From: a virus
Direction: 5' to 3' (one strand)
Virus record (IMG/VR): IMGVR_UViG_3300027659_000014
Span: 32,001 to 96,000 of that record
Length of the DNA: 64,000 bases
The translations under genes and the position numbers were made by a program. The notes below the pieces were generated by a model that made no database searches, was not told the DNA's origin, and saw nothing but the letters and a program-made list of their open reading frames with translations. Positions 19,252-21,111 of this stretch are shown here, piece after piece (positions within the stretch are counted from its first letter, which is position 1; the number at the start of each line of letters is the position of its first letter).

Positions 19252-19257
19252 ATAATT

Positions 19258-19677
19258 ATGTCACTACTTAGAGAAACAATACGTAAAGTTTTAATCTTAG
19301 AAAAGAAGATTGCTGAGATCCAAGCAAAACTTACTGTTACCATGAATTTAAGATACCAACAGGTAAATGTACCTGGAATGAAGACCCACGCTGAAATACG
19401 AAAAAAAAGAGATTTTTCAAAAAGTGGTGATATAATTAGAGATTATGATATCTTAAATTCAGTAAAAAAAGTAAAGGATGATATAGTACAATATATTGTC
19501 ATTGGTGAGTTATATGATGGTGTTGAGTTTGTAATTAAAGATGAATCAAGCTTACTTAGTATTGCAATTAGAATAGAAGAAGTTAATCCTTACGAATTTA
19601 ATCTTTTTATTAAAACCGTTATGAGGGATGCTAATTTTTATGTTGGTAGAAATCAACTAGTTATTACCGCAAAATAA
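19258..19677 (+). CDS. Putative BECR-fold (RelE/DUF4258-like) ribonuclease with N-terminal helical tag
   Basis: THAEIRKKR (T-HA-x-x-R-x-x-R) helix and terminal strand FIKTVM; N-term MSLLRETIRKVLILE. Confidence 0.45.
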   Translation: MSLLRETIRKVLILEKKIAEIQAKLTVTMNLRYQQVNVPGMKTHAEIRKKRDFSKSGDIIRDYDILNSVKKVKDDIVQYIVIGELYDGVEFVIKDESSLLSIAIRIEEVNPYEFNLFIKTVMRDANFYVGRNQLVITAK

Positions 19678-19700
19678 ACCCCCACTGGTACCAATGGGGG
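19671..19700 (-). terminator. Rho-independent terminator
   Basis: Minus strand CCCCCAUUG-GUAC-CAGUGGGGG followed by UUUAUUUU; the G:U pair favours minus. Confidence 0.85.
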
Positions 19701-19805
19701 AGTGTAATTTCATCTTACATCACGAGTAAGATTGAGGATTTTCACCTAGAGAACATCGTGTCTCATTCCGCCGAGTTGTAAGGGTAATCTCGGTTCAACC
19801 CTTTT
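19701..19805 (-). ncRNA. Putative structured RNA: H-type pseudoknot, kissing-loop pair and T-loop-like hairpin
   Basis: GC-enriched non-coding gap; pairings 19780-85/19798-803, 19771-75/19789-93, 19749-52/19761-64, 19735-37/19745-47, 19712-18/19726-32; loop-loop 19721-25/19756-60. Confidence 0.6.
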
Positions 19806-19810
19806 TGTAA

Positions 19811-20257
19811 TTAACGATCCTCTATTGTAAATCCTTGAGAATCAACCTCAGGTCCATTATCAATTAACATTTCAACTTTGATTTCTCCATCAACAAATCT
19901 TGACACAGAACAGAATTCAATTTCAACATCCTCATTAAGATTCATTTTAAACTCGTTATACTGTTCCTCAGTTTCAAATGACCCAACTTGACTTGCCGGT
20001 GATTGGTAAACTTTTAGACGATACGAACCAAATGGATTTTTAAGTTCAGAAACTTCCATAATAAGATTATCAAACTTATAATTATCAGTACCATCTTCGG
20101 TTACAAATTTCCCATCATTATCCCTTTTTAATGTTTGAGAATAATGGTACCCACAATTACCACAATTTATATAATCTTCACCTGTTTTGTAATAGAAATC
20201 GCTAAACGCTTCTTGTTTACAATTTGGACATTCAATATAATCAATTACACTTCCCAT
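19811..20257 (-). CDS. Zinc-ribbon protein (148 aa)
   Basis: CPNC...CGNC at the N-terminus; own host-type promoter. Confidence 0.8.
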   Translation of the reverse strand: MGSVIDYIECPNCKQEAFSDFYYKTGEDYINCGNCGYHYSQTLKRDNDGKFVTEDGTDNYKFDNLIMEVSELKNPFGSYRLKVYQSPASQVGSFETEEQYNEFKMNLNEDVEIEFCSVSRFVDGEIKVEMLIDNGPEVDSQGFTIEDR

Positions 20258-20272
20258 TTTTTTATTTTTTTA

Positions 20273-20304
20273 CAAAGATATATAACTTATTTTAATTTGC
20301 CAAA
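20273..20304 (-). promoter_or_regulatory. Complete Bacteroidota sigma-A promoter
   Basis: TTTG-N20-TATCTTTG, matching the -33/-7 consensus. Confidence 0.75.
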
Positions 20305-20310
20305 TTTTTA

Positions 20311-21111
20311 TTATAAATAGTCAAATAATTCTGAACTATCGTTTCTTAATCTTCTTAACGCCTTTTCTTTTATTTGTCTAACTCTTTCTTTTGTTAATCC
20401 AAAATCACTCCCAATATCTTCCAAAGTTCTTGGTGTTCCTGTGATCCCAAAATAATCGCCAATAATTGATTTTTCACGATCATCTAAATTATTTAATAAA
20501 TTTAACATTTTTTCTTTTAAAATATCGTTTGTATTAAAAATGGCATCAGGAGCTTCAGCCTCTTGATTAACAATCATATCAATAAGGGTATCACCGTCTT
20601 CATTTATTTTCATGTCTAAATCAACAATAGATGGTAATCCAGTAAACTTATCATCCATTTTATTTCCAGATTGTTCAACTTCTTTTTTCGCCCTATGTAA
20701 ATCTTGTACAACATTAACTGGTAATCTTATTGTTCTCGAATTATCATTTAATGATTGTAAAATTGATTGTTTAACCCACCATACTGCGTATGAAATAAAT
20801 CTAAGATCTTTATTCCAATCAAAATTTTTAATTGCTTTCAGTAAACCATGATTACCCTCAGCAATTAGATCTTGTAAATCTAATCCTTGGTTTTGATATT
20901 GTTTTGCAACTGTTATAACAAACCTTAAGTTACCCACAAGTAATTCTTCTTCAATTTGTTTTTTTTCAATTTCAGAAATATTATCTGATTTCATTTTTAT
21001 CGCCAAAGTTTTTTCCCTTTCTGGTGACATAACTTTAATTTTTCTAATATCTTTAAGATAGTAATATACTTCTTCTTGATTAATTGGGATTCCTAAATTT
21101 TTACTTTTCAT
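20311..21111 (-). CDS. rpoD: RNA polymerase sigma-70 factor, Bacteroidota primary-sigma-like
   Basis: Region 1.2 YLKDI, region 2 NLRFVITVAKQYQNQGL and RFISYAVWWVKQSILQSL, RTIRLP, region 4 TLEDIG..FGLTKERVRQIKEKAL; no region 1.1. Confidence 0.92.
   Translation of the reverse strand: MKSKNLGIPINQEEVYYYLKDIRKIKVMSPEREKTLAIKMKSDNISEIEKKQIEEELLVGNLRFVITVAKQYQNQGLDLQDLIAEGNHGLLKAIKNFDWNKDLRFISYAVWWVKQSILQSLNDNSRTIRLPVNVVQDLHRAKKEVEQSGNKMDDKFTGLPSIVDLDMKINEDGDTLIDMIVNQEAEAPDAIFNTNDILKEKMLNLLNNLDDREKSIIGDYFGITGTPRTLEDIGSDFGLTKERVRQIKEKALRRLRNDSSELFDYL

What the first reader, a model, noticed from the sequence alone, without database searches (positions are those of the whole stretch)
19671..19810. 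Unannotated ~105-nt RNA with two predicted pseudoknots in the 3' region of a Zn-ribbon gene
Seen: a markedly GC-richer non-coding gap, read on the minus strand. (i) H-type pseudoknot AAGGGU/ACCCUU crossed with CCGAG/CUCGG. (ii) Hairpin GAGA..UCUC whose loop CACGA is complementary to UCGUG in the loop of a 7-bp hairpin AUCUUAC/GUAAGAU. (iii) Between them a T-loop-like hairpin AGG-UGAAAAU-CCU. (iv) A strong terminator. Upstream are a complete Bacteroidota promoter (20273-20304) and one Zn-ribbon ORF, so promoter-protein-RNA-terminator looks like a self-contained unit. I cannot match the fold to tRNA, to hammerhead, twister, pistol or HDV ribozymes, or to FMN, cobalamin, SAM or preQ1 riboswitches. 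Inference: a new ncRNA, such as a ribozyme, nuclease-resistant element, protein decoy or partner of the Zn-ribbon protein.
Basis: partly seen in the sequence, partly recalled or inferred. Interest (0 to 1): 0.82.

Follow-up and report, generated by a model that had tools for sequence, protein, structure and literature searches.

The report
Pseudoknotted phage RNA facing RNase gene
This is a real, uncatalogued small RNA of about 130 bases from large freshwater Bacteroidota phages; it lies tail-to-tail with a gene for a predicted RelE-like RNA-cutting enzyme whose relatives almost always have a small-RNA gene beside them, so it is probably that enzyme's antidote or regulator and not a partner of the Zn-ribbon protein.

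Summary
The flagged stretch (minus strand, about 19806-19671) is a genuine structured small RNA. It matches no Rfam family. I found about 120 copies in IMG/VR phage contigs and lake metagenomes. Covariation supports three hairpins, the terminator and the first pseudoknot. The crossing helix is invariant in the main family, but it is replaced by a different, still complementary 8-bp helix in a divergent subfamily. The second proposed pseudoknot (loop-loop kissing) is not conserved.

The Zn-ribbon gene is incidental: it is present at 16 of 94 loci. The consistent neighbour is a small protein with a RelE/ParE/BrnT-like predicted fold, which is window ORF 19258-19677. When I sampled by this protein, 73 of 80 homologues faced this RNA or another promoter-driven small RNA. 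A second family with the same fold (178 aa) had an adjacent small RNA at 33 of 35 assessable loci.

Best reading: an RNA partner of a phage RNase, resembling a type III toxin-antitoxin pair. It differs in having no tandem repeats, a different toxin fold and convergent genes. About a third of the copies have no adjacent RNase gene.

Earlier reports of this scan, on other genomes, found the same family and reached the same reading. The function is inferred from gene neighbourhood only and has not been shown.

The parts
19671..19806 (-). The whole small RNA (type 1): pseudoknot domain, three hairpins, linker, intrinsic terminator and U-tract
   Evidence: Covariance model R1 matches 19662-19806 at 160 bits. 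Alignment A1 holds 60 distinct homologues. No Rfam match.
19798..19802 (-). P1, 5' strand (pairs with 19781-19785)
   Evidence: The outer pair switches between A-U (31) and U-A (21), with 8 unpaired. The inner G-C pairs never vary.
19781..19785 (-). P1, 3' strand
19789..19793 (-). P2 (pseudoknot helix), 5' strand, lying in the P1 loop (pairs with 19771-19775)
   Evidence: Invariant in the main family. In subfamily B it is replaced by a different complementary 8-bp helix, with further compensated variants inside B. L272 shows a one-sided A-U to G-U change.
19771..19775 (-). P2, 3' strand
19749..19764 (-). P3 hairpin (4 bp, 8-nt loop with a conserved ACGA core)
   Evidence: All 4 pairs show changes on both sides.
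19735..19747 (-). P4, a short T-loop-like hairpin. It is the module shared with the other small-RNA types found beside RelE-like genes.
   Evidence: The outer pair is A-U 29, G-U 19, G-C 9. Similar hairpins occur in the type 2, 3 and 4 RNAs.
19712..19732 (-). P5 hairpin (7 bp). The loop sequence is not conserved.
   Evidence: 4 pairs show changes on both sides. The loop differs between subgroups.
19679..19700 (-). Intrinsic terminator hairpin, followed by the U-tract 19671-19678
   Evidence: Terminator scan. 7 of 9 pairs show changes on both sides.
19258..19677 (+). Convergent 139-aa gene with a predicted RelE/ParE/BrnT-like (BECR) fold and an extra N-terminal helix. Its stop codon lies in the complement of the RNA's U-tract. 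Proposed partner of the RNA.
   Evidence: AF2 model with pLDDT 80. VIA-align top hits at Z 5-6.2 are almost all RelE-superfamily RNase toxins, plus T4 RegB. DUF4258 hit in 1 of 26 members. 73 of 80 homologues face a small-RNA gene.
19811..20257 (-). Zn-ribbon ORF (148 aa) upstream. A neighbour here, but not a consistent partner.
   Evidence: Present before the RNA at 16 of 94 loci. Of 47 loci sampled by this protein, 11 have the RNA next to it.
20273..20304 (-). Bacteroidota-type promoter (TTTG, 20 nt, TAnnTTTG) of the Zn-ribbon gene. The likely source of the RNA's transcript in this phage.
   Evidence: Read directly. In other phages an equivalent promoter lies directly before the RNA.
20311..21111 (-). 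Phage sigma-70-family gene. The RNA sits in the variable slot downstream of it.
   Evidence: Pfam Sigma70_r2 and r4. Upstream of the RNA at 74 of 94 loci.

Best explanation
The stretch encodes a small RNA of about 130 nt that acts in trans and folds on its own. Its parts are an H-type pseudoknot, three hairpins, a conserved linker and an intrinsic terminator. In this phage it is made as the 3' end of the Zn-ribbon transcript. In many relatives it is made from its own host-type promoter.

It belongs to a modular superfamily of phage small RNAs whose genes are tied to genes for small proteins of RelE/ParE/BrnT-like fold. Here that gene is the convergent ORF 19258-19677.

The most likely mechanism is that the folded RNA binds this putative endoribonuclease and holds it inactive, or acts as a decoy substrate. 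That makes it an RNA antidote in the manner of a type III toxin-antitoxin pair.

Shown:
- the RNA family and its structure;
- the gene linkage.

Inferred:
- RNase activity of the protein;
- direct binding between RNA and protein;
- the direction of the effect.

Graded confidence: a real structured RNA, about 0.95; a functional partner of the RelE-like protein, about 0.6; an inhibitor or antidote, about 0.35-0.4.
For: Structure:
- Covariation on 60 distinct sequences.
- P2 is compensated in subfamily B.
- G-U pairs, promoters and U-tracts fix the transcribed strand.

Linkage:
- A convergent 139-aa homologue lies at 39 of 94 main-family loci.
- It is also present at the 9 subfamily-B loci and the intermediate L272, although both flanks there are unrelated to the window's and the sigma gene is absent from those flanks at the 9 B loci.
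- Sampling by the protein: 73 of 80 homologues face this RNA or a type 2 small RNA with its own promoter.
- A second family (178 aa) gives the same list of fold matches. It has an adjacent small RNA at 33 of 35 assessable metagenome loci. At 16 of these the type 1 RNA lies directly after the stop codon on the same strand.
- Control: the Zn-ribbon gene has the RNA beside it at 11 of 47 loci.

Other points:
- Type 2 RNAs show the same loop motif of about 17 nt two or three times, as expected of a protein-binding RNA.
- The same RNA serves in convergent, co-directional and solitary settings, which argues against a purely antisense role.
- Fold matches: 5e3e_B CdiA-CT Z 6.2, ParE/RelE 5.2-5.8, BrnT 4.6, T4 RegB 5.0.
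Against: - No experiment exists, and I had no expression data.
- The fold matches are modest (Z below 8). Foldseek found nothing at E below 0.2. Sequence support is a single weak DUF4258 hit.
- About a third of the main-family loci (30 arranged sigma gene, RNA, membrane-protein gene) have no adjacent RelE-like gene.
- Two near-complete genomes with the RNA lack any 139-aa homologue. Their only 178-aa-family gene lies elsewhere and has its own different RNA.
- On the protein tree the nearly invariant type 1 RNA pairs with proteins from both deep clades, which are about 30% identical. RNA type has switched several times. That fits poorly with tight, specific recognition.
Confidence: 0.45

Rival explanations
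1. An independent small RNA aimed at a host factor, for example a decoy for a host defence or housekeeping protein. On this reading its closeness to RelE-like genes reflects a shared insertion hot spot and a shared two-way terminator, not a joint function.
For: - The slot after the sigma gene is a variable island holding DNA methyltransferases, a GIY-YIG gene, the Zn-ribbon gene and other non-coding units.
- The RNA is dispensable: some close relatives have only a terminator there.
- 30 loci have no RelE-like neighbour.
- The RNA core is almost invariant whatever protein lies beside it.
Against: - The pair is kept together at subfamily-B loci, where both flanks differ.
- 73 of 80 and 33 of 35 protein-sampled loci carry some small RNA, against 11 of 47 for the Zn-ribbon control.
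- The link holds in three different gene arrangements.
Confidence: 0.2
2. An antisense regulator in the manner of a type I toxin-antitoxin pair. The RNA would pair with the mRNA of the convergent gene, either at the overlapping 3' ends or at its start codon, and block translation or trigger decay.
For: - The stop codon of the convergent gene lies in the complement of the RNA's U-tract. The hairpin is not followed by a good U-tract on the plus strand, so the two transcripts should overlap.
- In the window, 19753-19743 and 19723-19715 are complementary to the start region 19256-19275. The duplex energy is -28.6 kcal/mol, against -16.1 +/- 3.3 for shuffles (1 of 300 as low).
- One subgroup changes both sides in step.
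Against: - Complementarity to the start region is not general. The median z is -1.0 over 36 distinct pairs, absent in subfamily B, and -0.4 for the 178-aa contexts.
- The same RNA also occurs on the same strand as its neighbour gene, and alone.
- An antisense role does not explain the conserved pseudoknot and loops, or the repeated loop motif of type 2 RNAs.
- The protein is not a short hydrophobic peptide.
Confidence: 0.15
3. A regulated terminator (riboswitch-like or antitermination element) that controls read-through from the sigma operon into the downstream membrane-protein and amidase genes.
For: - The downstream genes lie on the same strand at about half of the loci.
- A highly conserved pseudoknot next to a terminator resembles small riboswitch aptamers.
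Against: - A convergent gene lies between the RNA and those genes at 39 loci, and at all subfamily-B loci.
- I saw no alternative pairing with the terminator's 5' strand.
- The downstream genes carry their own promoter-like motif after the terminator.
- No riboswitch family matches.
Confidence: 0.05
4. A self-cleaving ribozyme or processing element that frees the RNA from the upstream mRNA. This was one of the first reader's options.
For: - At 79 of 94 loci the strict promoter pattern finds no promoter of the RNA's own, so the RNA would be the tail of a longer transcript.
- The core is strongly conserved and pseudoknotted.
Against: - No match to hammerhead, twister, pistol, hatchet or HDV-like models, even at E up to 10.
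- There is no positive evidence, and it cannot be tested here.
Confidence: 0.05
5. An RNA partner of the Zn-ribbon protein.
For: The two are adjacent in the window and at 15 other loci.
Against: - The Zn-ribbon gene is absent from 78 of 94 RNA loci.
- 36 of 47 Zn-ribbon loci lack the RNA next to the gene.
Confidence: 0.03

Closest known systems
Type III toxin-antitoxin systems (ToxIN, CptIN, TenpIN; criteria from PMC3401426)
   Same: - A small structured RNA gene with a terminator lies beside a gene for a putative endoribonuclease.
- The RNA forms a pseudoknot.
- Orphan RNA copies in phages recall the pseudo-ToxI RNAs that phages use.
- At some sister loci (types 3 and 4) the order is RNA, terminator, then gene, as in the canonical type III locus.
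   Different: - No tandem repeats: there is one complex unit of about 105 nt instead of 34-45-nt repeats.
- The protein looks RelE/BECR-like, not ToxN/AbiQ-like.
- The genes converge in the window.
- The module is carried by lytic-looking large phages.
- Toxicity and inhibition are untested.
Type I toxin-antitoxin pairs with convergent, 3'-overlapping genes (Bacillus txpA/RatA and bsrG/SR4; from my own knowledge)
   Same: - Convergent RNA and protein genes share their 3' ends.
- They are carried on phage-derived DNA.
   Different: - The protein is a 139-aa soluble alpha/beta domain, not a short membrane peptide.
- The overlap is limited to the terminator.
- The RNA is also found on the same strand as its neighbour gene, and alone.
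Phage T4 RegB endoribonuclease and RelE/ParE/BrnT (DUF4258) toxins, for the partner protein
   Same: Predicted fold: two helices packed on a four-stranded sheet. Z 5.0 to RegB, 5.2-5.8 to RelE/ParE, 4.6 to BrnT. An invariant His lies at the start of the first core helix.
   Different: - No significant sequence match, apart from one weak DUF4258 hit.
- There is an extra N-terminal helix.
- No protein antitoxin gene lies beside it.
- RegB has no known RNA partner.
Multi-site protein-sponge RNAs such as CsrB/RsmZ (from my own knowledge)
   Same: The sister type 2 RNAs present the same loop motif on two or three hairpins.
   Different: - The motif, the protein family and the genetic linkage to the protein gene all differ.
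- The window's type 1 RNA carries only one partial copy of that motif.

Membership tests
Any Rfam family (riboswitches, ribozymes, known sRNAs, tRNA/tmRNA) | Match to the family's covariance model | tested here: not met
   No match at the gathering thresholds in the whole window. Only chance-level matches at E up to 10 in 19500-20000. No tRNA or tmRNA. Sister RNAs also have no match.
Type III toxin-antitoxin | The RNA gene lies directly beside the gene of a protein toxin | tested here: met
   Adjacent at 39 of 94 main-family loci, all 9 subfamily-B loci and L272. 73 of 80 and 33 of 35 protein-sampled loci carry a small RNA. Toxicity of the protein was not tested.
Type III toxin-antitoxin | The antitoxin is a tandem array of short nucleotide repeats (PMC3401426) | tested here: not met
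   Tandem Repeats Finder finds nothing in 19550-19900. The RNA is a single unit.
Type III toxin-antitoxin | The RNA lies upstream of the toxin gene on the same strand, separated by a terminator | tested here: not met
   The genes converge in the window. The canonical order is seen only at sister loci with type 3 and type 4 RNAs.
Type III toxin-antitoxin | The toxin is a ToxN/AbiQ-type endoribonuclease | tested here: inconclusive
   The model's best fold matches are RelE/ParE/BECR proteins at Z 5-6.2. No ToxN-like chain is among the listed rows.
Type III toxin-antitoxin | The RNA binds and inhibits the toxin, and the toxin processes the RNA | not testable with these tools
   Needs co-expression, binding and cleavage assays.
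Type I toxin-antitoxin | The toxin is a small hydrophobic peptide | tested here: not met
   A 139-aa protein with a predicted soluble alpha/beta fold.
Type I toxin-antitoxin | The RNA is complementary to the toxin mRNA | tested here: inconclusive
   The 3' overlap is confined to the terminator. Complementarity to the start region is strong in the window (1 of 300 shuffles as low) but not general.
RelE/ParE/BrnT (BECR) RNase superfamily (partner protein) | The fold, and a family profile match | tested here: inconclusive
   VIA-align Z 5-6.2, with the list dominated by this superfamily for two independent models. Foldseek found nothing significant. Pfam DUF4258 in 1 of 26 members at E 0.0011.

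The most novel reading that the evidence does not exclude
Large freshwater Bacteroidota phages carry a new class of RNA-protein modules. Modular small RNAs (at least four architectures sharing a T-loop-like hairpin) neutralise RelE-fold RNases that carry a capsid-targeting-like N-terminal helix. The RNase would be packed into the virion and injected to attack host RNA. The RNA, made early from a host-type promoter, would then switch the RNase off and protect the phage's own transcripts. Solitary RNA copies would give immunity against RNases injected by related phages.
Probability: 0.25. Interest if true: 0.85.

Novelty: new variant of a known kind. Interest (0 to 1): 0.72.

Why it matters
If the RNA is the antidote of a RelE-fold RNase, it extends RNA-based (type III-like) toxin control in three ways: to the largest toxin superfamily, to non-repetitive complex RNAs, and to the genomes of lytic jumbo-type phages. 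It would also give a compact, highly conserved pseudoknotted RNA-protein pair for structural study.

The superfamily (types 1-4) shows modular shuffling of RNA domains next to a diversifying protein. That is a rare natural system for studying how RNA and protein evolve together.

Even without a known function, this is a well-supported new RNA family with about 120 members, suitable for Rfam.

Tried and rejected
- **Known RNA families:** Rfam at gathering and permissive thresholds, and ARAGORN, gave nothing.
- **Isolated phages:** INPHARED phage records gave no DNA match, so no isolate carries it.
- **Kissing-loop pseudoknot:** rejected on covariation.
- **P2 variants in the main family:** a pattern that left P2 free found none; every extra hit was a chance match. 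One pattern scan was wasted on a miscounted spacer.
- **Homology between the 139-aa and 178-aa families:** not detectable by profile comparison (probability 3%), although both models hit the same fold list.
- **Pfam/PHROGs for the 139-aa protein:** nothing. A PDB sequence search also gave nothing.
- **Zn-ribbon protein:** only a weak, sub-threshold Lar-like match.
- **Literature:** the IMG/VR structured-RNA survey (PMC10690425) may list this motif anonymously, but its supplements are not held, so I could not check.
- **CM alignment of subfamily B:** the covariance-model alignment misaligns the pseudoknot region of subfamily B, so I counted P2 pairs with a script.

Full report
**What is there**

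- The terminator scan finds one terminator, at 19700-19679, followed by a U-tract.
- GC reaches 0.40-0.42, against 0.19-0.35 in the flanks.
- Single-sequence folding energy is not exceptional (z -1.49), so the case rests on comparison with homologues.
- Rfam gives nothing at the gathering thresholds for the whole window. Between 19500 and 20000 it gives only chance-level rows at E up to 10.
- There is no tRNA or tmRNA.
- Isolated-phage records hold no similar DNA.
- The window lies in a 106-kb virus record that CheckV rates 36% complete, so this is a jumbo-type phage. The RNA occurs once in it.

**The RNA family**

Pattern scans of IMG/VR found the element on about 94 contigs. A covariance model built from 60 distinct copies (A1, R1) later matched 86 of 86 chosen sources, including 17 lake-metagenome loci. 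The only hit among 185,579 species genomes is a 5.7-kb contig binned into a Crocinitomicaceae MAG. This fits the Bacteroidota-type promoters seen at these loci.

On A1 the proposed structure pairs in 95.8% of cells, against 87.4% in shuffles (0 of 500 shuffles reach it). When the 3' partners are slid by one to three columns, pairing drops to 39-54%. By helix:
- P3: changes on both sides in all 4 pairs.
- P5: in 4 pairs.
- Terminator: in 7 pairs.
- P4: varies A-U, G-U, G-C at its outer pair.
- P1: covaries only at its outer pair (A-U 31, U-A 21, 8 unpaired).

Frequent G-U pairs, the promoters and the U-tracts fix the minus strand as the transcribed one.

**The pseudoknots**

The crossing helix P2 never varies in the main family, so A1 says nothing about it. 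A scan that left P2 free found no variants.

A scan anchored on the 3' half instead found a divergent subfamily B on nine contigs, plus an intermediate, L272. In subfamily B the eight bases between the conserved loop start and the P1 3' strand are different. They are matched by a different downstream segment, giving an 8-bp helix. Four variants inside B compensate one another, and L272 shows a one-sided A-U to G-U change. All 18 sequence classes keep 5 of 5 pairs at the homologous positions. The first pseudoknot is therefore supported.

The second one, pairing the P3 loop with the P5 loop, pairs in 43.7% of cells. That equals the shuffles. It exists only in the window's close relatives.

**Context**

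Over 94 loci:

| Neighbour | Position relative to the RNA | Loci |
|---|---|---|
| Phage sigma-70 gene | upstream, same strand | 74 |
| Membrane-protein gene | downstream | 79 |
| Amidase gene | downstream | 67 |
| Zn-ribbon gene | between sigma gene and RNA | 16 |
| 178-aa gene | between sigma gene and RNA | 16 |
| 139-aa homologue | convergent, between RNA and membrane-protein gene | 39 |

- A strict Bacteroidota promoter pattern lies directly before the RNA at 15 loci, and at all subfamily-B loci.
- Among 80 loci sampled by the sigma gene, 41 have the RNA within 1.5 kb. The others hold DNA methyltransferases, a GIY-YIG gene, other non-coding units, or only a terminator.
- The slot is therefore a variable island, and the RNA is an accessory element.
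Of 47 loci sampled by that protein, 11 have the RNA beside it.

**The partner**

*The 139-aa protein.* It has no Pfam or PHROG match and 155 unnamed relatives. An AF2 model (pLDDT 80) found nothing significant with Foldseek. With VIA-align its top rows, at Z 5.0-6.2, are almost all RelE-superfamily RNase toxins: CdiA-CT, ParE, RelE, HigB, YafQ, BrnT and YoeB, plus phage T4 RegB. One of 26 members hits DUF4258 at E 0.0011. These scores are modest, so I treat the fold as probable rather than proven.

*Linkage.*
- At all nine subfamily-B loci and at L272 a homologue again lies convergent, directly after the terminator, although the genes on both sides are unrelated to those in the window.
- Among 80 loci sampled by the protein, 7 face this RNA and about 66 face a different small RNA with its own promoter (type 2). 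Only 7 face neither.
- Type 2 RNAs carry the same loop motif of about 17 nt on two or three hairpins, one of which is the terminator. They also have a middle hairpin that resembles P4.

*The 178-aa protein.* It is not detectably similar in sequence to the 139-aa protein, but its model returns the same fold list. Among 36 metagenome loci sampled by it:
- 16 have the type 1 RNA directly after the stop codon, on the same strand.
- Most others have a further promoter-driven, terminated RNA (types 3 and 4) immediately upstream or downstream.
- In total, 33 of 35 assessable loci carry an adjacent small RNA.

Types 1, 3 and 4 share the P4-like hairpin and the short linker that follows it.

**Limits of the linkage**

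- Thirty loci arranged sigma gene, RNA, membrane-protein gene have no RelE-like neighbour.
- Two near-complete genomes of that kind (99% and 93% complete) lack a 139-aa homologue. They hold one 178-aa-family gene far away, and that gene has its own type 4 RNA.
- On the protein tree, RNA type is clustered (7 changes, against 33 in shuffles). However, the nearly invariant type 1 RNA sits beside proteins from both deep clades.

**An antisense lead**

In the window, two RNA segments are complementary to the start region of the convergent gene. The duplex energy is -28.6 kcal/mol, against -16.1 +/- 3.3 for shuffles, and 1 of 300 shuffles is as low. Over 36 distinct RNA-gene pairs the median z is only -1.0. 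The strong cases are related to one another, and the 178-aa contexts give -0.4. I keep antisense regulation as a rival explanation, not as the main reading.

**Reading**

The RNA is real and new. Its best-supported role is as partner of the RelE-like protein, most likely as an RNA antidote.

It resembles type III toxin-antitoxin systems, but it fails their defining locus criteria (PMC3401426):
- it has no tandem repeats;
- the toxin fold is different;
- the genes are convergent.

Both protein families begin with an amphipathic helix ending in a conserved Glu. I did not test this.

Earlier follow-up reports of this scan, on other genomes, described the same family and reached the same reading. 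I read them only after my own analysis, and they are not independent evidence.

Noticed in passing
L311:1909-2026 (minus strand), and about 65 other loci among L305-L384: Type 2 small RNA, convergent with 135-137-aa RelE-like genes. It has its own Bacteroidota promoter. Two or three hairpins each display the same loop motif of about 17 nt, and one of them is the terminator. A middle hairpin resembles P4. No Rfam match.
   Followed up: partly
L399:790-1000; also L400, L402, L404 and L392-L394: Type 3 small RNA, with promoter and terminator, lying immediately upstream of 178-aa-family genes. The order RNA, terminator, gene is that of a canonical type III locus. It shares the P4-like hairpin.
   Followed up: no
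L408-L411 (upstream of the gene); L412, L414, L421, L422 (downstream): Type 4 small RNA beside more distant 178-aa-family genes. These include the distal copies in two near-complete genomes whose type 1 RNA has no adjacent partner gene.
   Followed up: no
L049:1583-2119 (minus strand), and 15 other loci: A 178-aa protein family directly upstream of the RNA. Its predicted fold gives the same RelE/ParE/CdiA-CT/BrnT match list as the 139-aa protein, but no sequence similarity to it is detectable.
   Followed up: yes
window 19258-19305, and the N-termini in alignments A3 and A4: Both RelE-like families start with an amphipathic helix ending in an invariant Glu at residue 14-15. Several unrelated neighbouring proteins at subfamily-B loci start in a similar way. 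This may be a capsid-targeting and protease-cleavage signal.
   Followed up: no
L186-L265, downstream of the sigma gene (for example L194, L198, L226): The slot after the phage sigma-70 gene is a variable island. It holds cytosine DNA methyltransferases, a GIY-YIG endonuclease-like gene, the Zn-ribbon gene and, in L226, another promoter-driven non-coding stretch with a terminator.
   Followed up: partly
L095, L110, L131; L184:3019-3187: Type 1 variants that keep the pseudoknot, P3 and P4 but lack the usual P5 and terminator. L184 is the copy in a Crocinitomicaceae MAG contig.
   Followed up: no
window 19256-19275 (plus strand) against 19715-19723 and 19743-19753 (minus strand): Two stretches of the RNA are complementary to the start-codon region of the convergent gene. 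Only 1 of 300 shuffles gives a duplex as stable. The feature is limited to related subgroups.
   Followed up: partly
directly after the terminators and before RelE-like genes, for example L399:975-1000 and L421: A TATTTAT-like motif lies 5-8 nt before the start codon, right after a terminator. It may be a phage-specific (late) promoter, in contrast to the host-type promoters of the RNAs.
   Followed up: no
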